A DNA stretch of 64,000 nucleotides from Gemmatimonadota bacterium. Lineage in GTDB: Bacteria; Gemmatimonadota; Gemmatimonadetes; Palauibacterales; Palauibacteraceae. Position numbers and translations under genes: made by a program. The notes beneath the pieces were generated by a model, which was not told the DNA's origin, ran no database searches, and was given only the letters and a program-made list of their open reading frames with translations. Within the stretch, counting starts at the first letter, position 1. The number at the start of each line of letters is the position of its first letter. The DNA lies in the NCBI GenBank assembly GCA_965116475.1, contig OZ220691.1, forward strand, positions 1,600,001 through 1,664,000. Reading direction: 5' to 3'. Positions 693 through 38,137 of the stretch are shown in pieces.

Positions 693-800
693 CTATTTGC
701 CGCTGGGGTCGCTGCCCGTGTCCGGGGATATCTTCGCACCCGCGCCGGACGTGAGGAAGAGCACGAGGAGGAAGGGCACGAGCGCGGACACGTCGCTCAA
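693..800 (-). CDS. Possible 35-aa small hydrophobic protein
   Basis: TTG start overlaps the panB TGA (TTGA); peptide MSDVSALVPFLLVLFLTSGAGAKISPDTGSDPSGK fills the gap between panB and the reductase. Confidence 0.3.
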   Translation of the reverse strand: MSDVSALVPFLLVLFLTSGAGAKISPDTGSDPSGK

Positions 801-1642
801 CCCCCGTCCCCCGCCGATTCGTAGCCGTGTTCCTCCGCCGGGTAGCTCCCCGACCGCACTTCCTCGGCGTAGCGCGCGACGGCCTCCCGCGTGGCCTCCC
901 CGAGTTCGGCGTACCGCTTCAGGAAACGGGCGTTGAACCCTTCGTTCAGGCCGAGCATGTCGTGTAGCACGAGCACCTGTCCATCGCAGTCCGGTCCGGC
1001 TCCGATCCCGATCGTCGGCACGGAGACGGCCTCCGTCACTCGCCGCGCCGCGGACGTCGGCATCAACTCGAGGACGATGGAGAAGACCCCCGCCTCCTCC
1101 AGGGCAACGGCTTCCTCCGCCAGCCGGGCCGCCGCCTCTTCGTCCTTCCCCTGAATCCGGTGTCCCCCGAGCGCGTGGACGGACTGCGGCGTGAACCCCA
1201 GATGCCCCATCGCGGGAATTCCCGCCCGGACGATCGCCCTTACCGCGTCGACGACCTCGAACCCGCCCTCGAGCTTCACGGCGCCGGCGCCGGTGCGCTT
1301 CAGGATGTTCCCCGCGTTTCGCACGGCCTCCGCGGGCGAGACCTGGTAGCTGAGGAAGGGCATGTCGACGACGACGAAGGCGCGCGACGCCCCTCGCGCC
1401 ACGATCCGGCCGTGGTACGTCATCTGCTCCACCGTGGCGGAGAGCGTCGTCTCTTCTCCGCACAGGACGCTCGCCACGGAGTCGCCGACGAGAACCAGGT
1501 CCACGCCCGCCGCGTCCACGAGCGATGCGAAGAGTGCGTCGTAGGCGGTGATGGCGACGATCTTCTCGCCGCGCGCCTTCATCGCCACGAGGTCGACCGT
1601 CGTCCGTTTTCGTTCTCCGGAGCCGTCGCCCGGCACGCTCAT
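797..1642 (-). CDS. panB: 3-methyl-2-oxobutanoate hydroxymethyltransferase
   Basis: Motifs TAYD, LVGDS, VVDMPF, VKLEGG, MGHLGFTPQS and TIGIGAG...DGQVLV. Confidence 0.97.
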   Translation of the reverse strand: MSVPGDGSGERKRTTVDLVAMKARGEKIVAITAYDALFASLVDAAGVDLVLVGDSVASVLCGEETTLSATVEQMTYHGRIVARGASRAFVVVDMPFLSYQVSPAEAVRNAGNILKRTGAGAVKLEGGFEVVDAVRAIVRAGIPAMGHLGFTPQSVHALGGHRIQGKDEEAAARLAEEAVALEEAGVFSIVLELMPTSAARRVTEAVSVPTIGIGAGPDCDGQVLVLHDMLGLNEGFNARFLKRYAELGEATREAVARYAEEVRSGSYPAEEHGYESAGDGG

Positions 1643-1669
1643 GGTTCGCGTCACTCGATCATCCCTCGA

Positions 1670-1909
1670 TCACACGCCTCCCGCGGCCGACTCCGGCGGG
1701 AACAGCGTCCGGCCCGTTTCGGCATCCAGCACGCGGATCGCGCTCACGGGACAGTTCGCCGCCGCCTCGAGCACGAGTGCCGCCGGGTCGCCCGTCGCAT
1801 CGACGACCGTCGACTGGCGGTGCTCGTCATGCGCGAACACGCCCGGCGCGGTGGCCACGCACATCGCGTTGCCGACGCAGAGCCCGCGGTCGACCTCGAT
1901 CTTCACCAT
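1670..1909 (-). CDS. Ferredoxin, [3Fe-4S] type
   Basis: CVGNAMC...NCPVSAI (CxxNxxC...CP); directly downstream of a P450. Confidence 0.9.
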   Translation of the reverse strand: MVKIEVDRGLCVGNAMCVATAPGVFAHDEHRQSTVVDATGDPAALVLEAAANCPVSAIRVLDAETGRTLFPPESAAGGV

Positions 1910-1916
1910 GTGGGGC

Positions 1917-3161
1917 TCACCATGTCACGGGCATGGATTCGATGGAGCGGAACTGGATGCTCGGCTGGTAGCGCAGTTCGTCCGTGTCGAGGGCGAAGCG
2001 CTCGAAGCGGCGCGCCAGCCCGCGAAAGACCTCCTGTCCCTCGATACGCGCGAGCGCGACTCCGAGGCAGTAGTGGATCCCGGACCCGAAGGAGAGATGC
2101 GGGTTCGGCTGGCGCCCGATATCGAACCGGTCGGGATCCTCGAACACGGAGGGGTCCCGGTTCGCCGCGGCGATGATCCAGCGGATCCGCTCGCCCGGCG
2201 ACAGCGTCTTCCCGCACAGTTCCGCCTCCCGCGCGACGATGCGCTGGGTCGACTTCACCGGCGGATCGAAGCGGAGGCACTCTTCGGTCGCCGTCCGCGC
2301 GAAGCGGTCGGGGTCCGACCTCAGCCGGTCCCACTGCGCCGGATGCTCGATGAAGGCGCGCAGTCCGTTGCAGATCAGGTTCATCGTCGTCTCGTGTCCC
2401 GCGAACAGCATCAGTCCCGTATTCACGAGCACCTGGTGCCGCGTGAAGACGCCATCGGTCTCCCCGCGCGCGAGCGCCGAGATCAGGTCGTCGCCGGGAT
2501 TCCCGATCCGCTCCTCGACGAACGGGCGGGCGTACGCCACGATCCCGCGGATCCCCTCCGTCAGAGGCCGCAGCCGGTCGGGCTCTCCGCGATTCAGGTG
2601 GAGGATGCTGTCGGCGAGCCCCCGGAGCGTGTCCATGTCCTCGCGGGGAACGCCCATCATCCGCGCGATGATCCGCACGGGAAGCGGCGCGGCGAGGTCG
2701 GTGACGACGTTCATCCTTCCCCTGGGCCACAACTCGTCCAGGAGTTCGTCGACCGCCCGGCGTACGAAGGGTCGCCAGCCTTCCATCGCCGTCGGGGTGA
2801 AGAAGGAATGAACCGTCTTGCGCTGCTCGAGGTGTTCGGGACGGTCCTGCTCCACGAGTTGATCCGCGCGGAACGTCCTGACCTCGTCGAACAGGGGCGC
2901 GTCCTCGGGCAGCACCGGCGGGTAGGGCGCCCCCTCCACGCCCCGGATCACCGCCGAGGAGAAGAGTTCGTGGTGCCGGAGGATCCAGACGACGGGGTCG
3001 TATCCCGTCACGACCCACAGCCCGAACTTCTCGTTCCAGTGTACGGGGTCCCGCTCCCGCAGCCGCGCGAAACAGGCGTATGGGCGGGCGATCGCCTCCT
3101 CCGCGAAGAGGTCGTCGAGCTCCGCCGCGGCAGCGCGCCCGGGACCCGTGCCCGGGATCAG
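1917..3161 (-). CDS. Cytochrome P450 (start probably CTG at 3161)
   Basis: PYACFARLRERDPVHW, I-helix AGHETT, EECLRFDPP, heme motif HLSFGSGIHYCLG; no ATG/GTG/TTG in frame between the upstream stop and the conserved N-terminus. Confidence 0.93.
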   Translation of the reverse strand: MIPGTGPGRAAAAELDDLFAEEAIARPYACFARLRERDPVHWNEKFGLWVVTGYDPVVWILRHHELFSSAVIRGVEGAPYPPVLPEDAPLFDEVRTFRADQLVEQDRPEHLEQRKTVHSFFTPTAMEGWRPFVRRAVDELLDELWPRGRMNVVTDLAAPLPVRIIARMMGVPREDMDTLRGLADSILHLNRGEPDRLRPLTEGIRGIVAYARPFVEERIGNPGDDLISALARGETDGVFTRHQVLVNTGLMLFAGHETTMNLICNGLRAFIEHPAQWDRLRSDPDRFARTATEECLRFDPPVKSTQRIVAREAELCGKTLSPGERIRWIIAAANRDPSVFEDPDRFDIGRQPNPHLSFGSGIHYCLGVALARIEGQEVFRGLARRFERFALDTDELRYQPSIQFRSIESMPVTW

Positions 3162-13880: not shown

Positions 13881-14429
13881 TCACCAGATGGTTTCGTAGC
13901 GCGCGGGGGCGAGGTTCCAGGTTTCGCCGTAGACGTGCAGGCGGTTGGTCGGTCCGTCGGGGCCGACGAGCGGGGCGCCGGCGTGGGTCCATGAGAGGAG
14001 GCTCCCGCGCAGGTTGAGTACGCGCCGGCCTTGCTCGTTCTGCCGCTTCGCATACTCGGAACTTCGGTGGCCGATCGTGCAGTAGGCCACGACGGTCATG
14101 TCGGCGTAGCGGTCGGAATTCCGTTCGAACTCCTCGGAGGTGATGGAACCGGGGATCCAGGAGACCTCGCGCTCGCGGGGCGCCCGGGCGTCGACGAGCA
14201 CGACGCTTCCGGTCTCGAGCAATCGCCCCACCTCTTCCACGGTGACGGCCTCCACCTCCGGAAAGCGCCGTTCGACTTCCTCCACCATCTCTTCCACGCG
14301 CGCGAGCTTCTCGGCATCTGTCAGGCCCGCCGCCGGCGCCTGACCCGTACAACCGGTGGCGGCGACGAGTATGAGCGACGGAGCCAAAGCCAGGAGCGCC
14401 GGCGCCAGAGCTGCCTTGTGTCGTTCCAT
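13881..14429 (-). CDS. Rhodanese-like domain protein (exported/lipoprotein)
   Basis: LVDARAPRE..VSWIPGS, YCTIGHRS, NLRGSLLSW; hydrophobic N-terminus ending ATGC. Confidence 0.85.
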   Translation of the reverse strand: MERHKAALAPALLALAPSLILVAATGCTGQAPAAGLTDAEKLARVEEMVEEVERRFPEVEAVTVEEVGRLLETGSVVLVDARAPREREVSWIPGSITSEEFERNSDRYADMTVVAYCTIGHRSSEYAKRQNEQGRRVLNLRGSLLSWTHAGAPLVGPDGPTNRLHVYGETWNLAPARYETIW

Positions 14430-14472
14430 CGTCTCTCTCACGGACGGATCCTCATTCTTCGGGACGGGCCGC

Positions 14473-15760: not shown

Positions 15761-17236
15761 TTACCGGACCTTGTTCGAATAATTTCCATGCACGCTGTAG
15801 CGGGCGATGGCGCCGTCCTCCCGGTGGAAGATATACGCCTCTCCCGGCTCGCCGTCGTCCCGTATGCGCCGGAAGGTATCGCCGCCCTCGTGCCGCAGCT
15901 TGGTCATTCCCTCGACCGGGTCATTCGAGGGGAGACCGAGGGCCGCGAGGCCGTCGTCCCACTGGAGGATGACCGTTTCTCCCCACGTGGACTGGTACAG
16001 CCCCTCGTACTCCGCCAGGGAGGCCGGGCGCGCGGTGCCGCCGTCCGGGTCGCTGCGGATCTCCTCGAGGGCCGCCCCGAGCGTCTCCATCATCCTCGTC
16101 CACACATCGGTGGGATTGGCGAGGGCGTTCATCATCACCACCCCCGCCAGCTTCTTCGCGGGCAGGAGCTGGAAGGTCGAGCGGAAGCCCGGGCAGCTCC
16201 CGCCGTGGCCCACCGCGCGCTCCCCGTCGCGGCGCGAGACCGCGAAGCCGAGCCCCCACATCGTGTCGAAGTCGGGGTCGACCCAGTGCACGCGGTGCAT
16301 CTCCCTCAGCGTGTTCACATCGAGGATCTCCGTGCCCCCGTTCTCCAGCAGGCGGAACTGCCACGAGGCAAGGCGCGCGAGATCCTCCACCGTCGAGGCG
16401 AACCCCGCCGCGGACGCCATCCCCAGCGCCTGGAAGAAGGGAGCTTCGGCCCGGTCGCCGTCCCGCTCGAGCCGCGAGTACCCGGTGGCGTAGCGGCCGC
16501 CCCGGTGCTCGACGGGAATGTCGGTGTACGTGTCGGACATCCCCAGCGGCTCCAGAATCCGGCTCCGGATGTACTCGTCGTACCCCATCCCCGAAGCCTG
16601 CTCGACGAGTTGCCCCGCCAGCGCCATCCCCAGGTTCGAGTACTGGAAGTAGCGGCGGCCGGGATACAGCGTCTCCTGCCCCGAGAGCCCCTCGATGATC
16701 TCGTCCCGCGTGGGGAAGGGATGGTCGGGGCCGGTCCAGTAGGGGTGCGCCGATTCGCGCGGGAGTCCGGAGGAGTGGGTGAGGATCCCCTCCACGCTCA
16801 CGCTCGGACCATCGGCAAACACCTGCTCGAGGTCGTACCACGGAAGGTGCGCGGATACCGGGTCGTCGAGATCCAGCTTGCCCTCGTCCCGCTGCTGCAT
16901 CACGCCGATGGAGGTGAAGAGCTTCGAGATCGAACACACGGAATACATGGTCGACGGGGTGGCGGGGACCGCGGTCTCGCGGTGCGCGTACCCGTAGCCG
17001 CGGGCCCATACGAGGTCCTGGTCGTGCACGAGCGCCGCGGACACGCCGGGGATCTTCTCGTACGCCATCTTCGCGTCGAGCCACGCATCGAACAGCGCCA
17101 CCGCCTGCTCGAAGCGCGGATCGTTCACGGGATCGCCGTTCCCCTGCGCGCACCCGGCCGCGGGAGCCGCGAGAAGGACGGCGAAGACGAGGGCGATGGC
17201 GCGGCGCCATGGACGATCTCGGGACGGGCGAGCCAT
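15761..17236 (-). CDS. Serine hydrolase, beta-lactamase family (AmpC/PBP-like), exported
   Basis: SISK, LTHSSGL, YSN, GHGGSCPG; GGAGG RBS before ATG 17236. Confidence 0.92.
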   Translation of the reverse strand: MARPSRDRPWRRAIALVFAVLLAAPAAGCAQGNGDPVNDPRFEQAVALFDAWLDAKMAYEKIPGVSAALVHDQDLVWARGYGYAHRETAVPATPSTMYSVCSISKLFTSIGVMQQRDEGKLDLDDPVSAHLPWYDLEQVFADGPSVSVEGILTHSSGLPRESAHPYWTGPDHPFPTRDEIIEGLSGQETLYPGRRYFQYSNLGMALAGQLVEQASGMGYDEYIRSRILEPLGMSDTYTDIPVEHRGGRYATGYSRLERDGDRAEAPFFQALGMASAAGFASTVEDLARLASWQFRLLENGGTEILDVNTLREMHRVHWVDPDFDTMWGLGFAVSRRDGERAVGHGGSCPGFRSTFQLLPAKKLAGVVMMNALANPTDVWTRMMETLGAALEEIRSDPDGGTARPASLAEYEGLYQSTWGETVILQWDDGLAALGLPSNDPVEGMTKLRHEGGDTFRRIRDDGEPGEAYIFHREDGAIARYSVHGNYSNKVR

Positions 17237-17290
17237 GGCAGGACCTCCTTTGTTGGCGGGGAAGCCGCAAGGTGCCGAAGCCGGACGGGC

Positions 17291-17334
17291 CGGGGCAAGC
17301 ACGGGGCAGACACAGGGCAGGCACAGGGCAGGCA
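17291..17334. repeat. Four tandem 11-bp repeats (CRGGGCARRCA) in a divergent intergenic region
   Basis: CGGGGCAAGCA, CGGGGCAGACA, CAGGGCAGGCA, CAGGGCAGGCA. Confidence 0.85.
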
Positions 17335-17436
17335 CCGCGCGAACCCGTCCCGGGGCTCTGGCGCGGAGGCGGGGGGTGCGCCACCCTTCGGCATGGCTCT
17401 TCCACCTGTCTTCCACCCGCACGAAAGGACCGAGAC

Positions 17437-18033
17437 ATGCGGAGACTTGTCCTGGCCGCCGCCCTCGCACTGGGCCTGGCCGGAACGCTCGCCATCGGAG
17501 GCGCGGCCCCGGTGAGCGCGCAGGACGCGCAACTGCTCGAAGTGGGCGAAATGGCGCCGGACTTCGCGCTCCCGGGCGCGACGCGGTACGGGGCGCTGGA
17601 GAACCCGATCCGCCTGAGCGACTACCGGGGCGAGACTGTCGTCCTCGCCTTCTTCTTCAGAGTCAGGACGCGTGGCTGAACGGTTCAGATGAGAGCGTAC
17701 CGTGATCAGTACGCAAGTCTGTTCAACGAGGGCCGGAACGTGGTCCTCGTCGGCATCTCGAACGACCCGGTCGACGAACTCGCCTCATGGCTGAAGGACG
17801 AGGATTTCCCCTTCCTGTTCGCGAGCGACGCGGGCAACAGCGGGGGGACCTACGTCGACTTCGGCGGAGGCCTGAGGGACAGCAACGCGGTGGACAGCCG
17901 CGCGGTGATCGTGGTGGGGCCCGATGGGCGCATTGCGGGCGTGATCCCGAGCTTCAACCAGGTCGACCCCGCGGCCTACGACGAACTCGCCGCCATCATC
18001 GACGAGGTGACGCCGGAGGCTGTCGACCCGTAG
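17437..18033 (+). CDS. Exported peroxiredoxin (BCP/AhpC-TSA-like), probable selenoprotein with UGA at 17677-17679
   Basis: Two ORF-track pieces share one frame: ...APDFALP...LSDYRGETVVLAFFFRVRTRG-UGA-TVQMRAYRDQY...LVGISND...FASD...SRAVIVVGPDGRI; the UGA occupies the peroxidatic Cys position. Confidence 0.85.
17686..17721 (+). promoter_or_regulatory. Putative bacterial SECIS hairpin
   Basis: CAGAT/GTCTG lower stem, GCGTAC/GTACGC upper stem, loop CGTGATCA starting 21 nt after the UGA. Confidence 0.65.
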
Positions 18034-18036
18034 GAA

Positions 18037-18612
18037 CTAATCGCCTCCCGCTTGCTGAGCGGAGAGGATGCCGGTGACGGCCCCGACGAGGTCCTGGTCG
18101 GGGCCGACGCCGGTGTAGGCCACCTTCCCATCCGCGTCGAGGATCACGACGATCGAGGTCGTGGTCGCCGAATAGGCGCGCACCGCGGCGCCGTCCGCAT
18201 CCCACAGGTAGGGGTATGCCGCCCCGTGCGCCTCCGCGTGGCGCCTGACGCGGCGCAGCGACTGAGCCACCGCGACCGCCACCGCGACGACGTTCACGCG
18301 GTCGCCGAAGTCGGCCTGCACCCGGTCGATCTCGGGCTGCAGCCCCTCGCACTGTTCGCACCACGCGGCCCAGAACTCGAACAGCGCGGGCTTGCCGTCC
18401 GCGTAGTCGAGAAGCTGGACCTCGTTACCGTCCAGATCCTGCAGCGTGGCGTCCGGACCCTGCGTCCCGGGGGCGAGGCTGACCTGTCCCGCGCCGGCCT
18501 GCGCGTGGAGAGGGGCGGCCGCGGCGAGGGCAGCCAACGCGGCGAGGGCGGCCAGTGCGACGAACAGGATGGCGGTCGCGTAGTGCCGGGTTCGTCCCGA
18601 TTTCGTGTTCAC
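18037..18612 (-). CDS. TlpA/ResA-like thiol-disulfide oxidoreductase, exported
   Basis: FWAAWCEQC; signal peptide; GTG start overlaps the ccdA stop. Confidence 0.88.
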   Translation of the reverse strand: MNTKSGRTRHYATAILFVALAALAALAALAAAAPLHAQAGAGQVSLAPGTQGPDATLQDLDGNEVQLLDYADGKPALFEFWAAWCEQCEGLQPEIDRVQADFGDRVNVVAVAVAVAQSLRRVRRHAEAHGAAYPYLWDADGAAVRAYSATTTSIVVILDADGKVAYTGVGPDQDLVGAVTGILSAQQAGGD

Positions 18613-19370
18613 ATGAAGTATCCCGCCCGGATGAGGTAGAACTGCGCCATCCCGATCATGATGACGGCGGCGGCCCGTTTCATCCAGATCATCCACGTCC
18701 CGGACTTCGGCAGCACGGCGAGCGTCCCCGAGAACAGCCCGACCGCGATGAGCACGGCGGTCATGCCGATGGAGAAGGTGAACAGGTAGACGAAGCCCAT
18801 GAGACCGGCCTGTTCGGCGACGACCCAGGTGAGGACGACGGCAAAGGCGGGCGCCCCGCACGGCGCGGCCACGATCCCGGATGTCGCCCCGAGGAGGAAC
18901 ACCGCGCGGTAGGATCCGCCGCCGCGGCTGCCCGCCCACGCGAGAAGCCGCTTCGGCACCGGGACGGGAAAGACGTCGAGCATGAACAGGGAGAAGAAGA
19001 GGAGGAGATTGCCGGTCGCGAACAGCGCCCAGAAGCTTGCCCCGATCGAGCCCAGGACGGTGCCGCTGAGCCCGGCGATGACGCCGAGCACGGAGTAGAG
19101 GAGCGCCAGTCCAAGGGCATAGGTCAGCGTGAGGCCGATGGTGCGCCGCCGCGACTGACCGCCGCCGGCCGTGCCCGAGATGACGGAGAAGGTGATCGGG
19201 ATCATCGGCCAGATGCACGGGTTCGTGCTCGTGAGGACGCCGGCCGCGAAGAGGGCGCCGAGCGCGAGGAACGGGTTGTCGGAGAGCGCCGGGAGGAGTC
19301 CGCCCGCCGGCTCGACCTGCAGCGCCGCGAGCGCGACCGCCTCGACGGCGCCCGTTGCGACCGGGTCCAT
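18609..19370 (-). CDS. ccdA: CcdA/DsbD-beta transmembrane electron transporter
   Basis: GVLTSTNPCIWPMIP and AAPCGAP with two conserved Cys; multiple TM helices. Confidence 0.88.
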   Translation of the reverse strand: MDPVATGAVEAVALAALQVEPAGGLLPALSDNPFLALGALFAAGVLTSTNPCIWPMIPITFSVISGTAGGGQSRRRTIGLTLTYALGLALLYSVLGVIAGLSGTVLGSIGASFWALFATGNLLLFFSLFMLDVFPVPVPKRLLAWAGSRGGGSYRAVFLLGATSGIVAAPCGAPAFAVVLTWVVAEQAGLMGFVYLFTFSIGMTAVLIAVGLFSGTLAVLPKSGTWMIWMKRAAAVIMIGMAQFYLIRAGYFM

Positions 19371-22613: not shown

Positions 22614-24110
22614 TCATGTAGCGGACGGCCGCCCAAGCGCGTGCTCGAACACGGCGTCGACAGCCAGACAGCGCTCGACGGTGTCGGCGAGGCGGTCGAG
22701 TTCGCGGTCGATCGATCCGCCCCAGGCCGCCGCAGCGGGCCGGAGGCCGAGCGAACCGAGCCAGCCCGCGCGCAGGCGATCGTTCCTGAACGCGCCGTGC
22801 AGGTAGCACCCCCAGTGCGCGCCATCGGCGTGCCCGAGGTCGCGCGGCCCGTCGGCGAGCCACGGCCGGAGCCCGGGCGCGGCCCGCGTGCGCCCGTGGT
22901 GGATCTCGTAGCCGGCTACGATCTCCCCCTCCGCACCGTCCAGCCAGCCCGGCGGCGCCGCGGTGATGCGCGCGCTCGTCTGCCGTGTCTCCTTGCCGAG
23001 AGCGAGTTCGGTGCGCACGTCCAGGATGCGCAGTCCGTGTTCCTCGCCCCCGCCCTCGATGCCGGCCGGGTCCGCGATGCGGCGTCCCATGATCTGATAT
23101 CCGGCGCAGAGGCCCACCACGGGGATGCCGTCCGTCGCGAGGGCGCGAACGGCGTCCGCGAGGCCGGTGCGCTCCATCCAGCGGAGGTCGTCGAGGGTGT
23201 TCCGCGAGCCCGGGAGGATGATGGCGGCGAGGCCGGGCGGGGCAGTGAGGGCGGCCAGGTCGCGCGCGCGACGAACCCAGCGCAGGCGCACACCCGGTTC
23301 GCGGCGCAGGGGGTCAAGGTCGTCCAGGTTGGAGGCGCGGGGGTAGGCGGCTGCCGCGATGGCAGGAGCGTCCGCGGGTCCGGCATCGAGGGCCGGTCCG
23401 CCATCTTCTTCAGGGAGGTTGTGGTCGAGCCAGGGGACGACGCCCAGGACGGGCACGCCGGTGCGCTCGCGCAGGGTTTCCGGGGCGGGCGCGAGAAGCG
23501 CCGGATCCCCCCGGAATCGGTTGAGGATGAAGCCGCGGAAGAGGGCCCGGTCGGCCGCGGAGAGCAGCGCCCAGGTGCCGTAGAGGGAGGCGAAGGCGCC
23601 GCCGCGGTCGATGTCGGCGACGAGCACGACGTTCGCCGAGGCGTGGCGGGCCACGGCCATGTTGACGATGTCGCTCTCGCGCAGGTTCGTCTCGGCCGGG
23701 CTGCCCGCGCCCTCGGCGATCACGAGTTCCGCGCGGTCGCGGAGGCGGGCGAGCGCCTCGGTCACGACGGGCCAGAGATGGGGCTTGCGCTCGCGCCACG
23801 GAAGGTCGGTCGCGCCGCGGTCCGTGCGTCCCAGGCGGACGACCTCCGAACGCGTGTCGGCGAGCGGCTTGAGCAGGACCGGGTTCATGTCGACGTGCGG
23901 GTCCAGTCCCGCGGCCCGCGCCTGCAGCGCCTGCGCGCGCCCGATCTCGCCGCCTTCGGCCGTGACCGCGGCGTTGTTGGACATGTTCTGGCCCTTGAAG
24001 GGAGCAACGGCGATCCCGCGGCGGCGGGCGAGCCGACAGAAGGCCGCCGTGAGCAACGACTTGCCGACGCCGGAGCCCGTGCCCTGCAGCATGAGGACGG
24101 GTGCGCTCAC
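22614..24110 (-). CDS. cobQ: Cobyric acid synthase
   Basis: MLQGTGSGVGKS, PFKGQNMSNN, EGAGSPAE, DIDRGG, GLCAGYQ, GYEIHHG, YLHG. Confidence 0.96.
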   Translation of the reverse strand: MSAPVLMLQGTGSGVGKSLLTAAFCRLARRRGIAVAPFKGQNMSNNAAVTAEGGEIGRAQALQARAAGLDPHVDMNPVLLKPLADTRSEVVRLGRTDRGATDLPWRERKPHLWPVVTEALARLRDRAELVIAEGAGSPAETNLRESDIVNMAVARHASANVVLVADIDRGGAFASLYGTWALLSAADRALFRGFILNRFRGDPALLAPAPETLRERTGVPVLGVVPWLDHNLPEEDGGPALDAGPADAPAIAAAAYPRASNLDDLDPLRREPGVRLRWVRRARDLAALTAPPGLAAIILPGSRNTLDDLRWMERTGLADAVRALATDGIPVVGLCAGYQIMGRRIADPAGIEGGGEEHGLRILDVRTELALGKETRQTSARITAAPPGWLDGAEGEIVAGYEIHHGRTRAAPGLRPWLADGPRDLGHADGAHWGCYLHGAFRNDRLRAGWLGSLGLRPAAAAWGGSIDRELDRLADTVERCLAVDAVFEHALGRPSAT

Positions 24111-24799
24111 AGCTCCAGCCCGGGTTGCGCCCCGATGCCGCGGGTGCGGTAAGGGTGCTTGACCTCCTTCATCTCGGTGACGAGATCCGCGAAATCGATG
24201 AGTTCGGGCGTGGCCATGCGCCCGGTGATGACCACGTGCGTCCCGGCCGGACGATCGCGGATCGGGGGCAGCACCTCGTCGTGATCGAGCCAGCCGTACG
24301 CGAGGGGGTACGTGAGCTCGTCGAAGATCACGATGTCGTAGCGCCCGGAGTCGAGCACCTCCCGGCACCGTGCCCAGCACTCGCGCGCCAGGGCCCGGTC
24401 CTCCTCGATGCGCTCGCTCAACCAGGTGAAGCCCGCGCCCATCGGCACGATCTCGACCCCGAGCTTCTCCGCCGCGATGTGCTCGCCCCGCTGGACTCCT
24501 TCGGTCTTGAGGAACTGCAGCATGGCCACGGTCATGTCACGGCCGCGGGCGCGCAGCAGCGTGCCGAGCGCGGCCGTCGTCTTCCCCTTGCCGTCGCCGG
24601 TGTTGAGGATGACGAGGCCGGTGCGCTTCTGGCGGGGCGGGACGCGGTAGGGACCGGGCGTCCTCTGCTTCGGCACCGGGGCCTTCGGATGCCGCGCCGA
24701 CCGGTCGCCGGTCGAGCACATGGGATCGGCGGTGTCCCGGGGCGCGGGGCGGCAGCGTGGGCGGCAGCGGTCCGGGCTCCGCTCATCGTCCTGGGTCAC
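24107..24799 (-). CDS. cobO: Corrinoid adenosyltransferase (CobO/BtuR type)
   Basis: NTGDGKGKTTAALG, QFLK, FDEL, VITGR, EMKEVKHPY; start uncertain. Confidence 0.95.
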   Translation of the reverse strand: MTQDDERSPDRCRPRCRPAPRDTADPMCSTGDRSARHPKAPVPKQRTPGPYRVPPRQKRTGLVILNTGDGKGKTTAALGTLLRARGRDMTVAMLQFLKTEGVQRGEHIAAEKLGVEIVPMGAGFTWLSERIEEDRALARECWARCREVLDSGRYDIVIFDELTYPLAYGWLDHDEVLPPIRDRPAGTHVVITGRMATPELIDFADLVTEMKEVKHPYRTRGIGAQPGLEL

Positions 24800-27772: not shown

Positions 27773-28764
27773 CGCCGCCCCCCCCGCAGCAGCAGCGCCA
27801 CGAAGAACGGCACCCCCGCGACGGCCGTGACCACGCCGGTCGGGAGTTCGGCCGGCGCCACGACCAGGCGGGCCACGGTGTCCGCGAGCAGGAGGAAGGC
27901 GGTTCCAGCCAGGAAGGACGCGGGGAGAAGCATGCGGTGGTCGTTCCCCCACGCGAGCCGGACGGCGTGCGGAACGATCAGCCCGACGAAGCCGATCACG
28001 CCGCCCGCCGCCACGGCCGCGGCCACCATCAGCGACGCGGCCAGGTAGGCGGTGAGCTTCACCCGCTGCACGGAGGCGCCCAGGTAGAACGCGACCTCCT
28101 CACCGCGCGAGAGCAGATTGAAGGCACGGGCCAGCGAGACCACGGTCAGCGCGCCGGGAACGAGCAGCAGGGCCAGCAGCCCGGTCGACGGCCAGTCGGC
28201 GCCGGAGAGGTTGCCCATCATCCAGAAGATGGCCGAGCGGAATGACTCCACGTCGGCGACCGAGAGCAGAAGCAGGATCACCGCGTTGAAGAAGGCGCCG
28301 ATGATCACACCCGACAGGATCAGGACGCGCGTGTCCATCCGTCCGGGCGAGGCCCGCCGCGCGACCGCCAGCACCAGCGCCATCGCGGCCAGCGCACCGG
28401 CGAACGCGCCCAGGGGGAGCGTCCAGGGAAGGCGCAGCCCGACGCCGGTGACCACGACCGCCACCGCGCCGACCGCGGCTCCGCCCGAGACTCCGAGCAC
28501 GTAGGGTTCGGCGAGCGGGTTGCGCAGGAGGGCCTGAAAGGTGCAGCCGCTGAGGCCGAGCGCCCCTCCGACCAGCGCGGCCAGAGCCGCGCGGGGCAGC
28601 CGCAACTGGAGGAGGATGGAACGGGTGGTGGGGTCGGCCTCTCCCGAGAGAAGGCGCCACAACTCTCCAGGGCCCAGACCGGAGGCGCCGAAGGAGACGC
28701 TGAGCCCGATCGCGGCGACGACGACCAGCGCGAGGAGTGCGAGGCGGCGGGGCGTGTGCGTCAA
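27769..28764 (-). CDS. FecCD/BtuC-family ABC permease
   Basis: LRLPRA, RNPLAEPYVLGVSGGA, GVIGFVGLIVPH, ELPTGVVTA; TTG start overlaps the upstream stop. Confidence 0.93.
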   Translation of the reverse strand: MTHTPRRLALLALVVVAAIGLSVSFGASGLGPGELWRLLSGEADPTTRSILLQLRLPRAALAALVGGALGLSGCTFQALLRNPLAEPYVLGVSGGAAVGAVAVVVTGVGLRLPWTLPLGAFAGALAAMALVLAVARRASPGRMDTRVLILSGVIIGAFFNAVILLLLSVADVESFRSAIFWMMGNLSGADWPSTGLLALLLVPGALTVVSLARAFNLLSRGEEVAFYLGASVQRVKLTAYLAASLMVAAAVAAGGVIGFVGLIVPHAVRLAWGNDHRMLLPASFLAGTAFLLLADTVARLVVAPAELPTGVVTAVAGVPFFVALLLRGGRR

Positions 28765-29714
28765 CGCGGCCCGTGCAGGAAGTGGGCCATGCGACGTGCC
28801 GCCTCCGCCACGCGGGGTCCGGGTCGGTTGAAGAGGTCGCCGTCCACGAGGAGGTAGCGGCCGGCGCGGACGGCGCGCAGTTCCCGCCACCCCGGCCCCT
28901 CGAGCCACGGCGCACCCGGAGCTTCGGGCGCGTGCCGGGCGATGACGAGGGCGTCGGGATCGCGCCGCAGGATCGCCTCGACGGACACCCGCGGCCACGA
29001 GCGCGCGGCATCGCCGAAGACGTTGCGTCCACCCGCGTGCTCGATCACCTCGTCGATGAAGGTCCCCGGCCCGGTCGTCTGCGGCGGGTCGTGCCACACG
29101 GAGTAGTAGACGTCGACGGGCTCGCGTCCGCGCACCACGGCGGCCACGCTCTCCAGCTCGAGGTCCAGCGAGTCCACCAGCGCGGCGGCCCGTTCCTCGC
29201 GGCCGAGCAGCGTGCCCAGGCGGCGCAGGTGGCTGCGCACGTCGCCGATCGTCTGCACGTTCGCCCTGTATACGGGGATGCCCAGCGCGTCCAGCCGTTC
29301 CCCCACTGCGCGCTGGAACGCGTCGGCCCACGTGATGACGAGATCGGGTTCGAGACCGGCCAGTGCCTCGAGATTCGGCTGGATGGTCCCGCCGAGCGAC
29401 GGGAGGTGGGCGAGTTCCGGGGCCCGGTCGAACCGCGTGCGCGCGACGAGGACGCCGGGATCCAGCGCGGTGATCGATTCGGTCAGCGAGGGGATCACCG
29501 AAAAGACGCGGCGCGCCGGCGCGGTGAGCGCGACGGTGGTTCCCGCATCGTCCATGACGGAAACCGCGGGCACGTCCGCCTTCTCGTCCGGGGCACAGGA
29601 CGTGAGGAGGACCGGGACAAGCAGGGCCGGGGCGAGCAGGGCGGCGATCCGCCGCGCGAACGGAGCAATCGGGGGCGCTGTCGCGCTGGCCCTGGCCTGG
29701 TCTGCCGTGTACAC
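28761..29714 (-). CDS. Cobalamin-binding periplasmic lipoprotein (BtuF-like)
   Basis: Lipobox LTSC; RVFSVIPSLTE, PNLEALAGLEPDLV, RPGPR; downstream of a B12 riboswitch. Confidence 0.88.
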   Translation of the reverse strand: MYTADQARASATAPPIAPFARRIAALLAPALLVPVLLTSCAPDEKADVPAVSVMDDAGTTVALTAPARRVFSVIPSLTESITALDPGVLVARTRFDRAPELAHLPSLGGTIQPNLEALAGLEPDLVITWADAFQRAVGERLDALGIPVYRANVQTIGDVRSHLRRLGTLLGREERAAALVDSLDLELESVAAVVRGREPVDVYYSVWHDPPQTTGPGTFIDEVIEHAGGRNVFGDAARSWPRVSVEAILRRDPDALVIARHAPEAPGAPWLEGPGWRELRAVRAGRYLLVDGDLFNRPGPRVAEAARRMAHFLHGPR

Positions 29715-29747
29715 CGGTTCCCCTCCCTCGAAGGATGGTGTTGAGAG

Positions 29748-29913
29748 GACGAGGGAACCGCGTCTCCTGGCTCGAGGTGACGTCGCTCGCCTTCCCGGGA
29801 TCAACCAGTGGCCGTCGAGCGCGTCGTTTCGGATCCGCCGATGGGATCCGGACCTCCTACAGTGGCGGGGCCGCGTCGGCTTCGGACCGAACTTCCGGTG
29901 GCCCCCTCGCGTC
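29748..29913 (-). ncRNA. Cobalamin riboswitch upstream of the btuFCD-cbiB-cobD-cobO-cobQ operon
   Basis: Minus strand: GGAAGTTCGGT..AAGCCGACGCGGCCCCGCCACTGTA...GCCACTGG...GGGAAGG...AGCCAGGAGAC; downstream TCCTTCGAGGGA hairpin overlaps the RBS. Confidence 0.9.
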
Positions 29914-30933
29914 AATCTGCGAGGATAGCCGCACATCCGAGGGCGGGGCAACTCGGCAGCCGCCGCCGATCAACCGCAGGGACACGACCGTCGCGGGCGA
30001 ACGCGCGGGCAGCACGGGCACCACGACACCGCCCCCGTGGTTCAGGATGTCCGAGACCTCCTCCGGCGCCGGCGTTTCGTCCTCCGGGTAGAGAAGCCCC
30101 CACACGGTGCCCGAGTGAGCCCGCAGGATGCCGAGCGCGGTCGTCTCCCGGGCGCACGCCTCCAGTCCCGGCGGGGCGGGAGGACACCCCAGGCAATGGG
30201 CCTCCGCGGCGCTCGCCGTCGCCGCCGCGCCGATCTTCCCGGGGTCACCGTGCGCGATCCCTTCGGCGCAGAGCCGGAATGCGTCGCGCCAGGCGCTCAG
30301 GGCGTGTTCGGGGAGTCGGGTCGGAAGCCTCCGGTTGAACGCCACCGTGTCCACCGCCCCGGGGAGTCTGATGCCGAGGATGTTCAGGGCCGGGGGCGGG
30401 CCGAGCGGCTCCTGGATCGTGCCGCCGCGGTGATCGAACAGCACGAGCCCGGAGAGCAGAGAGCCGCTGGTCGGCTCAACCTCGAGGGCGGCGCGGACGA
30501 CGGCTTCACCCGACCCCCGCAGGCCCAGGGCGTCCACCCCGGCGCGCAATCCCGCGCCCAGATCGGCGGTGCTGCTTCCGAAGCCGGCCCCCCGAGGCAC
30601 CTCATCGCCGCCGAGCCTCACGCGCAGGGCGCGGCCGGGCCGCCCGCGCAGCAGGACCTCCAGACCGCGCTTCACCTTGGCATAGCGGGGGGAAGCACCC
30701 GCTTCGGCCCGGGCAGGCGGCACGACCTCCGCGCGGGCGGTCCGGTACAGGTCGACGGGAGCCGCGATCTGTAGCCAGCGGCCGCGCCCGAAGCCCTGCA
30801 CGAGTTCGCCGCAGGTGGCCGGGGCCGCCCAGGTCGCGGACCCGGCACCCGCCCCGGCCGGACGCCTTGCCGGGGGCACCGAGACGCACGCGACACCAGC
30901 TTGCACGCTGTCTGCAGAGCCTGTATCCATCAT
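29857..30933 (-). CDS. pduX: L-threonine kinase (PduX-like GHMP kinase)
   Basis: APATCGELVQG, PRGAGFGSSTAD, VEPTSG, AHSGTVWG; the start may instead be GTG 30879. Confidence 0.85.
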   Translation of the reverse strand: MMDTGSADSVQAGVACVSVPPARRPAGAGAGSATWAAPATCGELVQGFGRGRWLQIAAPVDLYRTARAEVVPPARAEAGASPRYAKVKRGLEVLLRGRPGRALRVRLGGDEVPRGAGFGSSTADLGAGLRAGVDALGLRGSGEAVVRAALEVEPTSGSLLSGLVLFDHRGGTIQEPLGPPPALNILGIRLPGAVDTVAFNRRLPTRLPEHALSAWRDAFRLCAEGIAHGDPGKIGAAATASAAEAHCLGCPPAPPGLEACARETTALGILRAHSGTVWGLLYPEDETPAPEEVSDILNHGGGVVVPVLPARSPATVVSLRLIGGGCRVAPPSDVRLSSQIDARGPPEVRSEADAAPPL

Positions 30934-30944
30934 CGCAGTTCATG

Positions 30945-31107
30945 GACGGAGGGGCGCTCGGAAGTCCGGTGAAAGTCCGGCGCGGCCCCGCCACTGTAAA
31001 GGGACAGGGGGATCCGATCCCCCGGTGTTCCGCTCACGAAGCCACTGGGCCGCGAGGCTCGGGAAGGCGAGCGGATCCGTCCCAAGCCAGGAGACCTCTC
31101 CTCCGTC
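30945..31107 (+). ncRNA. Cobalamin riboswitch upstream of btuB
   Basis: GGAAGTCCGGTGAAAGTCCGGCGCGGCCCCGCCACTGTAA...AGCCACTGGG...GGGAAGGC...AGCCAGGAGAC; P1 GACGGAG/CTCCGTC. Confidence 0.93.
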
Positions 31108-35463: not shown

Positions 35464-36257
35464 GCGGCGGCCCGCGCGACCTGCACCGCGAGCACGGCGA
35501 CGAGGATCGCGATCTCGTTCACCTGCTCCGTGGCGCCGAGGAAGTCGCCGGTCACGCCGGCGGCGCGCGCGCGGAATCGCCAGCCGCAGAGTGCGGTGGC
35601 GAGGGCCATCGCGGCAAACGCGGCGAGGGCGCCGGTCGCATCGATCGCACCCGTCGTCACCACCGTGGCCGCGCCGGCCACGCCGACCGCGGTCGCAAGC
35701 GCTGCCTGCGCGGCCCCGGCGCGCGCGACGTGACGGCTCTTCGCCGCCGCGGCGCTCGCGTAGGGGAGGGCGGCCATCAGCCAGACCGGGCCGACCCGCG
35801 CCAGGCCGTGCGCGAGGACCAGGGCGGCGGGCGCTGCCGCGAGCCCGGACGCCCCCGCCGCACCCCCCAACTGCGCGAGCAGCACCAGCCGGAACGCGAC
35901 GGACATCACGAGGGCCAGCGCCCCGAAGGCGCCGACCCGCGAGTCCTTCAGGATGACGAAGATCTCCTCGCGGTTCGTCGCTCCGCCCAGCGCGTCGGCC
36001 GTGTCAGCCAATCCGTCCTCATGGAAGGCGCCCGTCAGCAGGATCAACACGACGAGCACGCTCATCGCCGCCACCCACGGCCCCAGCGGCGCCACCAATC
36101 CCCACACGGCCGCGCACACCCCTCCGAGCACCAGTCCGACCAGGGGGAACCACGCCGAGGCCCATCGCCACTCCGCCGCCGAGTAGGGAAAGCCGCCCAG
36201 CGGCAGACGCGTCAGGAAGACGAAAGCGGCGCGCGCGCCTCGGAGCGATGTCCTCAC
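35460..36257 (-). CDS. cobS: Adenosylcobinamide-GDP ribazoletransferase
   Basis: FLTRLP, TGAFHEDGLADTAD, KDSRVGAFG, GVTGDFLGA. Confidence 0.95.
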   Translation of the reverse strand: MRTSLRGARAAFVFLTRLPLGGFPYSAAEWRWASAWFPLVGLVLGGVCAAVWGLVAPLGPWVAAMSVLVVLILLTGAFHEDGLADTADALGGATNREEIFVILKDSRVGAFGALALVMSVAFRLVLLAQLGGAAGASGLAAAPAALVLAHGLARVGPVWLMAALPYASAAAAKSRHVARAGAAQAALATAVGVAGAATVVTTGAIDATGALAAFAAMALATALCGWRFRARAAGVTGDFLGATEQVNEIAILVAVLAVQVARAAA

Positions 36258-37926: not shown

Positions 37927-38000
37927 GATGGGTTCGGGACAACGGCAGAGATGCGGGCCACCGAATTCGACCGCCGCCACCATAGGGTTGAGGGCAGAGG

Positions 38001-38071
38001 CGAGCCAGATGCGAACCGGTTTCGAGCCAGACGCGAGCGCCCGCACTACTGGTCGCATACTGGTCGCATAC
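38001..38071. repeat. Phased direct repeats in the cobT/creatininase divergent region
   Basis: CGAGCCAGAYGCGA at 38001 and 38023 (22-bp period); TACTGGTCGCA x2 at 38047 and 38058 (11-bp period). Confidence 0.7.
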
Positions 38072-38137
38072 CGTCGGAATATGCTAGTCTCGGGGGTTGG
38101 TGTCGTGCTCCCGTGCTCGCGGAAAACGAGGTGTGCC

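What the first reader, a model, noticed from the sequence alone, without database searches (positions are those of the whole stretch)
17437..18033. Hidden exported selenoprotein: peroxiredoxin with UGA at the peroxidatic position and a SECIS-like hairpin
Seen in sequence: the two ORF-track fragments share one frame, separated only by TGA (17677-17679) in VLAFFFRVRTRG-U-TVQM, which aligns with the Prx TxxC active site. The downstream catalytic Arg (SRAVIVV) is present. A two-stem hairpin (CAGAT/GTCTG; GCGTAC-CGTGATCA-GTACGC) follows at the distance expected for a bacterial SECIS, with G at loop position 2. The readthrough product has no Cys at all, carries a signal peptide, and has Phe in place of the usual Pro of PxxxTxxC. 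Established: Sec-containing Prx-like proteins exist. Inference: this is a 1-Sec periplasmic peroxidase that automatic annotation would split or call a pseudogene.
Basis: partly seen in the sequence, partly recalled or inferred. Interest (0 to 1): 0.75.

Follow-up and report, generated by a model that had tools for sequence, protein, structure and literature searches.

The report
Exported selenocysteine peroxiredoxin, split by annotators
This is one intact gene for an exported peroxide-destroying enzyme whose catalytic residue is selenocysteine, encoded by a TGA that gene callers read as a stop; the enzyme type is already known, but this marine bacterial lineage had not been linked to it in the papers checked.

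Summary
Window 17437-18033 (+) is one reading frame interrupted only by TGA 17677-17679. Read through, it gives a 198-aa AhpC/TSA peroxiredoxin with U81 at the peroxidatic position (TxxU).

- All 80 related loci from other Gemmatimonadota genomes (Palauibacter, Longimicrobiales) carry TGA at this codon. More distant full-length homologues carry Cys there.
- Both halves are under purifying selection (dN/dS 0.10 and 0.18, dS about 1).
- The eight codons forming a 6-bp, 8-nt-loop hairpin 15 nt after the TGA are almost frozen at synonymous sites (dS 0.06). This is the lowest of 153 windows along the gene.
- The hairpin meets all four published bSECIS criteria.

Corrections:
- The upper stem is invariant, so it shows no covariation.

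The selA/B/C/D machinery could not be checked, because only 64 kb and the flanks of relatives were available.

Public databases hold this gene as 114-aa C-terminal fragments.

A convergent CcdA and TlpA/ResA-like operon lies downstream in 59 of 80 loci. This suggests an envelope reduction chain like ScsB-TlpA-PprX.

Sec-peroxiredoxins (TxxU) are a known family, so this is a new member. Its unusual features are export, Phe or Tyr in place of the active-site Pro, and no other Cys.

The parts
17437..18033 (+). Complete selenoprotein gene: a 198-aa exported 1-Sec peroxiredoxin (AhpC/TSA, BCP/PrxQ-like) ending in TAG
   Evidence: Single frame with one TGA. Pfam AhpC-TSA covers residues 36-167. AlphaFold model has pLDDT 80.4 and pTM 0.75. 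Best Foldseek matches are BCP, PrxQ and AhpE peroxiredoxins, TM 0.76-0.82 by target.
17437..17520 (+). Putative Sec-type signal peptide (residues 1-28, MRRLVLAAALALGLAGTLAIGGAAPVSA|Q)
   Evidence: Read from the sequence. Homologues share a hydrophobic N-terminus ending in A-Q. pLDDT is below 50 for residues 1-8 and 11-16. No signal-peptide predictor was run.
17656..17658 (+). Phe74 codon, at the position of the conserved Pro of PxxxTxxC/U
   Evidence: Phe in 78 and Tyr in 2 of 80 loci. Pro in 20 of the 21 Cys-form homologues whose motif could be read.
17668..17670 (+). Thr78 codon of the TxxU active-site motif
   Evidence: One relative, L067, has Gly here.
17677..17679 (+). In-frame TGA: selenocysteine codon U81 at the peroxidatic position
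   Evidence: TGA in 80 of 80 loci and the window. It aligns with the peroxidatic Cys of homologues and of solved BCP structures 2ywn and 2cx3.
17695..17714 (+). SECIS core: 6-bp stem GCGUAC/GUACGC with 8-nt loop CGUGAUCA, starting 15 nt after the UGA
   Evidence: Identical in 63 of 63 distinct sequences, including three paralogues. Codon entropy is about 0 and rare codons are fixed. dS is 0.06 against about 1 in the flanks. This is the lowest of 153 eight-codon windows. It meets the bSECIS model quoted.
17686..17721 (+).
   Evidence: 70.5% of cells are paired, 1 of 5 pairs never varies, and the measures are not above shuffles. It is absent from the RNAalifold consensus.
17899..17901 (+). Arg155 codon, the conserved catalytic Arg of peroxiredoxins
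   Evidence: Invariant column in A1.
18037..18612 (-). Convergent neighbour: exported or anchored thioredoxin-fold thiol:disulfide oxidoreductase (WCEQC; ResA/TlpA/DsbE-like). Proposed reductant; the start codon is approximate
   Evidence: Pfam Redoxin, AhpC-TSA and Thioredoxin. NCBIfam ResA 1.3e-16 and TlpA 3.8e-9, both below their cut-offs. Found downstream together with CcdA in 59 of 80 loci.
18609..19370 (-). CcdA/DsbD-type transmembrane electron transporter, overlapping the start of the Trx-like gene by 4 nt (one operon); the start codon is approximate
   Evidence: Pfam DsbD_TM 1.5e-36. NCBIfam DsbD subfamily 2e-32, below cut-off. Synteny.

Best explanation
Window 17437-18033 is one functional gene for an exported, BCP/PrxQ-like peroxiredoxin whose peroxidatic residue is selenocysteine.

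How the UGA is decoded (inferred from the known bacterial pathway). During translation, UGA 17677-17679 is recoded by the bacterial Sec pathway (SelB with Sec-tRNASec). This is directed by a small SECIS hairpin inside the coding sequence: a 6-bp stem and the 8-nt loop CGUGAUCA, beginning 15 nt after the UGA.

How the enzyme works (inferred by homology to Cys peroxiredoxins).
- The mature protein, after removal of a 28-residue signal peptide, acts in the cell envelope.
- The selenolate of U81 is positioned by Thr78 and Arg155. It attacks H2O2 or an organic hydroperoxide and becomes a selenenic acid.
- The protein has no other Cys, so the oxidised residue must be resolved by an external thiol.

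Likely reductant (inferred from synteny and analogy). The adjacent TlpA/ResA-like WCEQC thioredoxin-fold protein is the most likely donor. It would be re-reduced by the co-operonic CcdA/DsbD-type membrane transporter, using cytoplasmic thioredoxin electrons.

Shown here:
- the single frame;
- family and fold membership;
- conservation of the TGA across species;
- Cys at the same column in more distant homologues;
- purifying selection on both sides of the TGA;
- RNA-level constraint on the hairpin;
- the conserved gene neighbourhood.

Inferred, not shown:
- Sec rather than another residue is inserted;
- the protein is exported;
- it has peroxidase activity;
- the CcdA to TlpA-like to Prx electron path.
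For: Conservation of the TGA.
- TGA sits at the column in 80 of 80 loci from different Gemmatimonadota genomes, at 69-97% amino-acid identity.
- It is also present in second paralogous copies in 3 loci.
- All 21 full-length database homologues whose motif could be read have ...RT.GC T.QM with Cys there.
- A quick ML tree puts 76 Sec rows and P0002 in one clade (SH-aLRT 97).

Selection.
- dN/dS is 0.10 upstream and 0.18 downstream of the TGA, with dS about 1.

Hairpin.
- Hairpin codons use fixed, otherwise minor codons: AGA 61 of 61, CGT 79 of 81, GAT 81 of 81, GCA 76 of 81.
- dS over these codons is 0.06.
- Normalised codon entropy is 0.033 against a median of 0.578. This is the lowest of 153 windows, Mann-Whitney p = 1e-6.
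- It meets all four bSECIS constraints quoted from PMC13188914: loop of 8 nt (allowed 3-9); stem of 6 bp (allowed 4-16); G then U at loop positions 2-3; 21 nt between the UGA and the loop (allowed 16-37); consensus stem energy -8.48 kcal/mol (required -7.5 or lower).

TGA is not reassigned.
- TGA is the commonest ordinary stop in the window: 25 of the 37 ORFs that end in a stop codon, out of 38 listed.

Family and fold.
- Pfam; PDB sequence alignment; AlphaFold; Foldseek.

Neighbourhood.
- The Trx-like and CcdA genes lie downstream on the opposite strand in 59 of 80 loci, within 1 kb in 49.
- The other neighbours are conserved only within Palauibacter.

Published precedent.
- Prx (PF00578, TxxU) is a listed selenoprotein family (passages of PMC13188914).
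- It is among the most abundant in marine metagenomes, with 253 sequences in GOS (passages of PMC2398784).
- A periplasmic Prx reduced by TlpA and a DsbD-family protein is known in Caulobacter (abstract of PMC3322552).
Against: - No selA, selB or selD (tblastn with the E. coli proteins, E 1e-3 or lower) was found in the window or the 80 loci. No tRNA-Sec was found there either. Only a small part of each genome was available.
- The one Gemmatimonadota genome in the 2016 survey, Gemmatimonas aurantiaca T-27, was scored SelD-negative and Sec-negative (PMC5029168, supplementary file 2).
- The stem never varies, so there are no compensatory changes: covariation term 0, and the measures are not above shuffles. 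An inverted repeat acting at the DNA level cannot be excluded from sequence alone.
- DNA of the Cys-form homologues could not be obtained. It is therefore not shown that the hairpin is absent from them.
- Rfam has no match to the hairpin.
- The single-sequence fold is not significant (z = -1.33).
- 21 of 80 loci lack the Trx-like/CcdA pair. Three of these end less than 1 kb after the TGA.
- The Prx gene is convergent to that operon, not part of it.
- The active-site Pro is replaced by Phe or Tyr, and one relative (L067) lacks the Thr. Peroxidase activity is therefore assumed by homology.
Confidence: 0.85

Rival explanations
1. The UGA is read through, but not as selenocysteine. A standard residue (Cys, Trp or another) would be inserted by near-cognate or suppressor decoding, and the conserved hairpin would act as a readthrough stimulator.
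For: No Sec machinery was seen in the sequence available. Gemmatimonas aurantiaca T-27 was scored Sec-negative in 2016. The hairpin shows no covariation.
Against: The position is the redox-active peroxidatic residue, where Sec/Cys pairs are the rule, and TxxU peroxiredoxins are an established selenoprotein family. The hairpin meets all four bSECIS constraints. Trp or Gly at the catalytic position would inactivate the enzyme, yet the gene is under purifying selection.
Confidence: 0.07
2. The TGA is a real stop. The locus would then be a split or decaying gene giving an 80-aa exported peptide, perhaps with a separate 114-aa protein from ATG 17689. This is how databases annotate it.
For: 98 of the 120 best database hits are 111-117-aa proteins starting at that Met. 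TGA is the main stop codon in the window.
Against: The same TGA is kept in 80 of 80 species-level relatives. dN/dS is 0.10 upstream of it and dS is about 1, so the upstream part is still translated in this frame. The Met is an invariant internal residue (M85) in Cys-form full-length homologues too. Neither fragment contains a whole thioredoxin fold; the model is one continuous domain. The 114-aa piece lacks the catalytic residue.
Confidence: 0.03
3. The frozen 20-nt inverted repeat is unrelated to decoding. It could be a protein-binding palindrome or an RNA-stability element that happens to lie in the gene.
For: The arms are a perfect DNA inverted repeat. There is no covariation and no Rfam family match.
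Against: It keeps the same register, 15 nt after the TGA, in all 63 distinct sequences. That includes paralogues only 61-63% identical in protein. A scan for similar loops elsewhere in the window and loci found no other credible copy.
Confidence: 0.05

Closest known systems
Selenocysteine-containing peroxiredoxins: selenoprotein family 'Prx', PF00578, TxxU. The prototype is the enzyme from Eubacterium acidaminophilum (NCBIfam PrxU, NF040737).
   Same: AhpC/TSA fold. Sec lies at the peroxidatic position in a T-x-x-U motif. Cys homologues outnumber Sec forms. A bSECIS hairpin follows the UGA inside the coding sequence.
   Different: It is not a PrxU equivalog: 41.8 bits against a cut-off of 270. 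The review describes a highly conserved PxxxTxxU motif, but this clade has F or Y in place of P. It carries a signal peptide and no second Cys. It comes from Gemmatimonadota, which none of the selenoproteome papers consulted mentions.
ScsB-TlpA-PprX cell-envelope peroxide reduction pathway of Caulobacter crescentus (PMC3322552)
   Same: An exported peroxiredoxin sits next to a TlpA-like thioredoxin-fold protein and a DsbD-family membrane electron transporter.
   Different: PprX uses Cys. The transporter here is a short CcdA-type protein, about 253 aa with the DsbD_TM domain only, not ScsB with its periplasmic domains. The Prx gene is convergent to the operon. No electron transfer was tested here.
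BCP/PrxQ and AhpE-type peroxiredoxins (solved structures 2ywn, 2cx3, 3hjp, 5epf, 4x1u)
   Same: They are the best sequence and fold matches. The catalytic Thr, Cys/Sec and Arg align.
   Different: Identity is 21-31%. Scores are below the equivalog cut-offs: NF006960 52 against 140, NF053650 33 against 260. There is no resolving Cys five residues after the peroxidatic one. Sec replaces Cys, and the protein is exported.

Membership tests
Peroxiredoxin (AhpC/TSA, PF00578) | Sequence match above the Pfam gathering score | tested here: met
   71.7 bits against 26, covering residues 36-167 across the TGA.
Peroxiredoxin (AhpC/TSA, PF00578) | Thioredoxin-type Prx fold in one continuous domain | tested here: met
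   AlphaFold pLDDT 80.4, pTM 0.75. Foldseek top hits are BCP, Prx and AhpE, with probability 1.00 and TM by target 0.76-0.82.
Peroxiredoxin (AhpC/TSA, PF00578) | Peroxidatic Cys/Sec in T-x-x-C/U, and the conserved Arg | tested here: met
   T78-R-G-U81. U aligns with the peroxidatic Cys of 2ywn and 2cx3 and with Cys of homologues. R155 is invariant.
Peroxiredoxin (AhpC/TSA, PF00578) | Conserved Pro of PxxxTxxC/U | tested here: not met
   Phe74 here. F in 78 and Y in 2 of 80 loci. Cys-form homologues have Pro in 20 of 21.
Peroxiredoxin (AhpC/TSA, PF00578) | Thiol-dependent peroxidase activity | not testable with these tools
   Needs an enzyme assay.
Bacterial selenoprotein | In-frame UGA conserved in orthologues, with coding constraint on both sides | tested here: met
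   80 of 80 loci. dN/dS is 0.10 upstream and 0.18 downstream.
Bacterial selenoprotein | Cys-containing homologues with Cys aligned to the UGA | tested here: met
   21 of 21 full-length hits whose motif could be read; 22 were examined, and P0055 did not match the pattern.
Bacterial selenoprotein | bSECIS hairpin: loop 3-9 nt, stem 4-16 bp, G in the first two loop positions, 16-37 nt from the UGA, MFE -7.5 kcal/mol or lower (model quoted from PMC13188914) | tested here: met
   Loop 8 nt (CGUGAUCA), stem 6 bp, 21 nt between UGA and loop, -8.48 kcal/mol. Synonymous sites are frozen.
Bacterial selenoprotein | Compensatory base changes supporting the SECIS stem | tested here: inconclusive
   All 6 pairs never vary in 63 distinct sequences. 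The lower stem is not supported.
Bacterial selenoprotein | selA, selB, selC and selD present in the genome | not testable with these tools
   None was found in the window or the 80 loci.
Bacterial selenoprotein | Selenium incorporated at the UGA position | not testable with these tools
   Needs 75Se labelling or mass spectrometry.
PrxU (NCBIfam NF040737 equivalog) | Score at or above the curated cut-off | tested here: not met
   41.8 bits against 270.
BCP/PrxQ equivalogs (NF006960, NF053650) | Score at or above the curated cut-off | tested here: not met
   52.1 against 140, and 32.8 against 260. These families are nevertheless the nearest solved structures.
Envelope peroxide-reduction pathway (ScsB-TlpA-PprX type) | Export signal on the peroxiredoxin | tested here: inconclusive
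   The signal peptide was read by eye, and the N-terminus has low pLDDT. No predictor was run.
Envelope peroxide-reduction pathway (ScsB-TlpA-PprX type) | Linked TlpA-like protein and DsbD-family transporter | tested here: met
   Both lie downstream in 59 of 80 loci.
Envelope peroxide-reduction pathway (ScsB-TlpA-PprX type) | ScsB-type transporter with a periplasmic N-terminal domain | tested here: not met
   Only the DsbD_TM domain is present, in a protein of about 253 aa.

The most novel reading that the evidence does not exclude
A whole clade of marine and sponge-associated Gemmatimonadota (Palauibacter, Longimicrobiales) uses the selenocysteine code, which the literature consulted does not record for this phylum. 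It uses it for an envelope-located 1-Sec peroxiredoxin in which the otherwise near-universal active-site Pro has been replaced by Phe or Tyr. The enzyme would be recycled by a CcdA to TlpA-like relay. That would be a selenium-based periplasmic peroxide defence, with an active site re-tuned together with the Cys-to-Sec switch.
Probability: 0.45. Interest if true: 0.55.

Novelty: new member of a known kind. Interest (0 to 1): 0.4.

Why it matters
- Annotation. Public annotation truncates this gene in many genomes to a 114-aa 'peroxiredoxin family protein'. An antioxidant enzyme and a selenium requirement are therefore hidden in an abundant marine and sponge-symbiont lineage.
- Selenium use. Recognising the gene extends Sec use to Gemmatimonadota lineages. 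The only member of the phylum in the 2016 survey I consulted was Sec-negative.
- A clean test case. 81 orthologues share an invariant mini-SECIS, and a nearby Cys-form clade exists. This allows study of why Sec replaces Cys in an exported peroxidase, and what the Pro-to-Phe/Tyr change at the active site does.
- Limits. It does not change the understanding of selenoproteins or peroxiredoxins as such.

Tried and rejected
- Rfam, whole window at gathering scores and 17600-17800 at E up to 10. Nothing matched the hairpin. The three weak hits are snoRNA or sRNA noise.
It was tested on 63 distinct sequences and rejected as a conserved feature.
- sel genes. tblastn with E. coli K-12 SelA, SelB and SelD (loci L081, L082) against the window and 80 loci gave no hits.
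- tRNA-Sec. ARAGORN on the window and all 80 loci found none. A 'tRNA-Cys(aca)' call in L068 lies inside the Trx-like coding sequence and is a false positive.
- Other TGA-interrupted genes in the window. One candidate at 797-1924 (-) is simply the stop of the gene upstream of panB. My filter was too strict to recover even the Prx gene, so this scan is weak.
- Other hairpins with a similar loop, window and loci. 168 hits lay outside the main Prx hairpin. Three were the paralogue copies. A recurrent CGCGACCA hit in 11 loci lies in a frame full of stops, so it is chance.
- The listing of cluster members for P0002 and the window's fragments. The database was switched off. It stays unknown whether P0002, the one 'Cys' row inside the Sec clade, is a true Cys form or a U written as C.
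- Complex prediction (Prx with the TlpA-like protein). Not run, because the tool takes proteins by genetic code 11 only and the read-through product is not one.
- Careful ML tree. It did not finish in time, so the quick tree was used. Six rows lacked my trimming anchor and were dropped: P0055, L017, L018, L020, L033 and L074.
- Literature. Searches linking Gemmatimonadota or Gemmatimonadetes, or Palauibacter, with selenocysteine, selenoprotein or the sel genes found nothing relevant.
Full report
**1. The observation**

ATG 17437 opens a frame that runs to TAG 18031-18033, and the only interruption is TGA 17677-17679. Table-11 ORF listing splits it into 17209-17679 and 17689-18033. Reading TGA as U gives 198 residues containing ...VLAFFFRVRTRG-U-TVQMRAYRDQY... 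and no cysteine.

The hairpin lies at 17686-17721: CAGAU, GCGUAC, loop CGUGAUCA, GUACGC, GUCUG. In this one sequence it folds no better than 16 of 200 shuffles (z = -1.33). On this sequence alone it would therefore not be evidence.

**2. What the protein is**

- Pfam AhpC-TSA covers residues 36-167, straight across the TGA (E 6.9e-20, 71.7 bits against a cut-off of 26).
- NCBIfam gives only sub-threshold matches: BCP 52 against 140, the selenoprotein PrxU 41.8 against 270, and PrxQ 33 against 260.
- The nearest solved structures by sequence are archaeal BCPs (2ywn at 1.5e-11, and 2cx3). In those alignments the U position pairs with the peroxidatic Cys in ...T-x-x-C-T....
- An AlphaFold model built on alignment A1 has pLDDT 80.4 and pTM 0.75. 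It forms one continuous thioredoxin-type domain.
- Its best Foldseek matches are BCP, PrxQ, AhpE and typical peroxiredoxins (probability 1.00, TM by target 0.76-0.82).
- Thr78 and Arg155 are in place, and Arg155 is invariant in A1.
- Phe74 occupies the position of the Pro of PxxxTxxC.
- The N-terminus (MRR, a 20-residue hydrophobic core, VSA|Q) reads as a Sec-type signal peptide. This is by eye only. The first 16 residues have pLDDT below 50.

**3. Is the TGA real and decoded?**

*Database hits.* The protein search found 838 relatives among 6003 candidates and listed the best 120. Of these, 98 are 111-117-aa proteins, and all begin M[R/T/E/K]AYRD, the Met four codons after the TGA. The other 22 are full length. 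Two of the fragments are named by NCBI 'peroxiredoxin family protein [Candidatus Palauibacter sp.]'.

In 21 of the 22 full-length hits my pattern found the motif; P0055 did not match. All 21 have Cys at the column, 20 with Pro and one (P0002) with Phe at the P position.

*Genome scan.* It returned 246 confirmed relatives, of which the best 80 loci were kept. All are Gemmatimonadota-type MAGs (Palauibacter, Longimicrobiales), and three are labelled Gammaproteobacteria. A pattern search found TGA at the column in 78 loci. The other two (L067, L073) also have it once the translation is read directly. That makes 80 of 80. Three loci (L043, L069, L080) carry a second TGA-containing paralogue.

*Selection.* This was measured on 81 coding sequences, one copy per locus plus the window.
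- Nei-Gojobori dN/dS is 0.10 for the 48 codons before the TGA, with mean dS 1.06 (2842 of 3240 pairs had defined distances).
- It is 0.18 for the 107 codons after the hairpin, with mean dS 0.96 (2887 of 3240 pairs).

Both parts are therefore translated in this frame across a divergence at which synonymous sites are nearly saturated. This excludes a sequencing error and a recent pseudogene.

*No general reassignment.* TGA terminates 25 of the 37 well-formed window ORFs that end in a stop codon (38 were listed), so it is not generally reassigned.

**4. The hairpin**

Codons 53-60 of the trimmed alignment (R-A-Y-R-D-Q-Y-A) are almost without synonymous variation. They use codons that are minor elsewhere in the gene: AGA 61 of 61, CGT 79 of 81, GAT 81 of 81, GCA 76 of 81.
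- dS over these eight codons is 0.06.
- Their normalised codon entropy is 0.033, against a median of 0.578. This is the lowest of 153 eight-codon windows (Mann-Whitney p = 1e-6).

In 63 distinct 72-nt sequences, paralogues included, the 6-bp stem GCGUAC/GUACGC and the loop are conserved. The stem never varies, and loop positions G2 and G4 are invariant. RNAalifold keeps only this stem: -8.48 kcal/mol, covariation term 0.

I reject it as a conserved part.

The core meets every constraint of the published bSECIS model, as quoted in the review PMC13188914 (passages read):

| Constraint | Model | This hairpin |
|---|---|---|
| Apical loop | 3-9 nt | 8 nt |
| Upper stem | 4-16 bp | 6 bp |
| Spacing from UGA to loop | 16-37 nt | 21 nt |
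| MFE | -7.5 kcal/mol or lower | -8.48 kcal/mol |

What is missing is covariation, which is impossible in an invariant stem. Also missing is the control on DNA of the Cys forms, which I could not fetch. Rfam has no matching family.

**5. Sec machinery**

This is the main gap.
- There is no tRNA-Sec in the window or the 80 loci.
- tblastn with E. coli SelA, SelB and SelD found nothing in the same sequence.
- In the 2016 survey of selenium use, the only member of the phylum (Gemmatimonas aurantiaca T-27) is listed without SelD or the Sec trait (PMC5029168, supplementary file 2, one row seen).
- None of the selenoproteome papers I searched mentions Gemmatimonadota.
- The Palauibacterales genomics paper has no mention of selenium or peroxiredoxin (term search only).

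**6. Surroundings and likely mechanism**

Immediately downstream and convergent lies a two-gene operon.
- A CcdA/DsbD-type membrane protein is at about 18609-19370 (-) (DsbD_TM, 1.5e-36).
- A signal-anchored thioredoxin-fold protein with WCEQC is at 18037-18612 (-). Its best matches are ResA, TlpA and DsbE, all below their cut-offs.
- The two genes overlap by 4 nt.

Both genes lie downstream on the opposite strand in 59 of 80 loci, within 1 kb in 49. Of the 21 loci without the pair, three end less than 1 kb after the TGA. The other neighbours (beta-lactamase-fold protein, amidohydrolase) are shared only within Palauibacter.

The protein has no second Cys, so the oxidised Sec must be resolved by an outside thiol. 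I infer the chain cytoplasmic thioredoxin, then CcdA, then the TlpA-like protein, then the Sec-Prx. The analogy is the ScsB-TlpA-PprX pathway of Caulobacter (PMC3322552, abstract read). This step is inference from synteny, and no complex prediction was run.

**7. Evolution**

A quick ML tree was built from 97 rows: 76 Sec and 21 Cys, with six rows dropped (listed in the Tried and rejected section).
- All Sec forms fall in one clade (SH-aLRT 97).
- This clade is sister to a Cys/Pro clade.
- P0002, the single 'Cys' row with Phe, is nested among L032, L039 and L067.

The tree is midpoint-drawn and the careful search did not finish, so I read no direction from it. Whether P0002 is a reversion to Cys or a U stored as C could not be checked.

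**8. Comparison with what is known**

Prx (PF00578, TxxU) is an established selenoprotein family.
- It is listed with the Eubacterium acidaminophilum enzyme as the reference, and described as having a 'highly conserved PxxxTxxU motif' (PMC13188914).
- It was found in 78 organisms in the 2016 survey (PMC5029168, table passage).
- It has 253 sequences in GOS marine metagenomes (PMC2398784, table passage).

The present gene is therefore a new member of a known kind. These features set it apart:
- the lineage it comes from;
- the export signal;
- the absence of any resolving Cys;
- Phe or Tyr in place of the active-site Pro throughout the Sec clade;
- the very small, invariant SECIS;
- the link to a CcdA/TlpA-like operon.

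**9. Verdict**

Two corrections apply: the lower stem is not conserved, and the machinery was not checked.

| Reading | Confidence |
|---|---|
| Decoded selenoprotein peroxiredoxin | 0.85 |
| Reduced by the neighbouring TlpA-like protein and CcdA | about 0.5 |

Interest is moderate. The finding is a solid, widespread annotation error and a likely unrecorded Sec-using lineage. It is not a new kind of system.

Noticed in passing
window 29762-29896 (-) and 30960-31095 (+): Two cobalamin riboswitches (53.5 and 67.2 bits) sit beside a corrinoid salvage and biosynthesis cluster: CobQ 22617-24380, CobO/BtuR 24110-24799, a periplasmic binding protein 28764-29951, CobU 36257-36901 and CobT 36787-38409.
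   Followed up: no
L043 (TGA at 10244 and 14235), L069 (10235 and 10920), L080 (1194 and 2017): Three relatives carry a second TGA-containing peroxiredoxin paralogue, 61-63% identical in protein and in two cases in tandem. Both copies have the identical 20-nt hairpin.
   Followed up: partly
L067 6096 and L073 6531: Two relatives depart from the RT.G-U motif. L067 reads RVRGGG-U, so the catalytic Thr is replaced by Gly. L073 reads RVRTGG-U followed by T-A-Q-M.
   Followed up: no
L025, L026, L027: Three MAGs are labelled Gammaproteobacteria. They carry the same gene and context as loci labelled Longimicrobiales (L028, L035, L037) and are identical to each other in the tree. The label is probably a binning or naming error.
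   Followed up: no
window 42548-44584 (-): A 679-aa protein made almost wholly of ankyrin repeats. From recall, such proteins are typical of sponge symbionts, which fits the sponge-derived relatives.
   Followed up: no
window 18612-19370 (-): The CcdA-type protein's best NCBIfam match is the DsbD-like part of TsoB, a rhodanese/DsbD-fusion selenoprotein (141.8 bits against a cut-off of 805). It is not a member. A separate rhodanese-domain gene lies at 13884-14441 (-).
   Followed up: no
window 61988-62392 (-) and 59715-62192 (-): An MsrB (SelR-domain) methionine sulfoxide reductase lies next to a multicopper oxidase. This is further oxidative-stress equipment. The SelR name has nothing to do with Sec decoding.
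   Followed up: no
L068 15415-15500 (-): ARAGORN calls an 86-nt 'tRNA-Cys(aca)' here. The stretch lies inside the Trx-like coding sequence and is a false positive.
   Followed up: yes
window 54651-54890 (+): A small Phd/YefM-type antitoxin gene. A partner toxin was not looked for.
   Followed up: no
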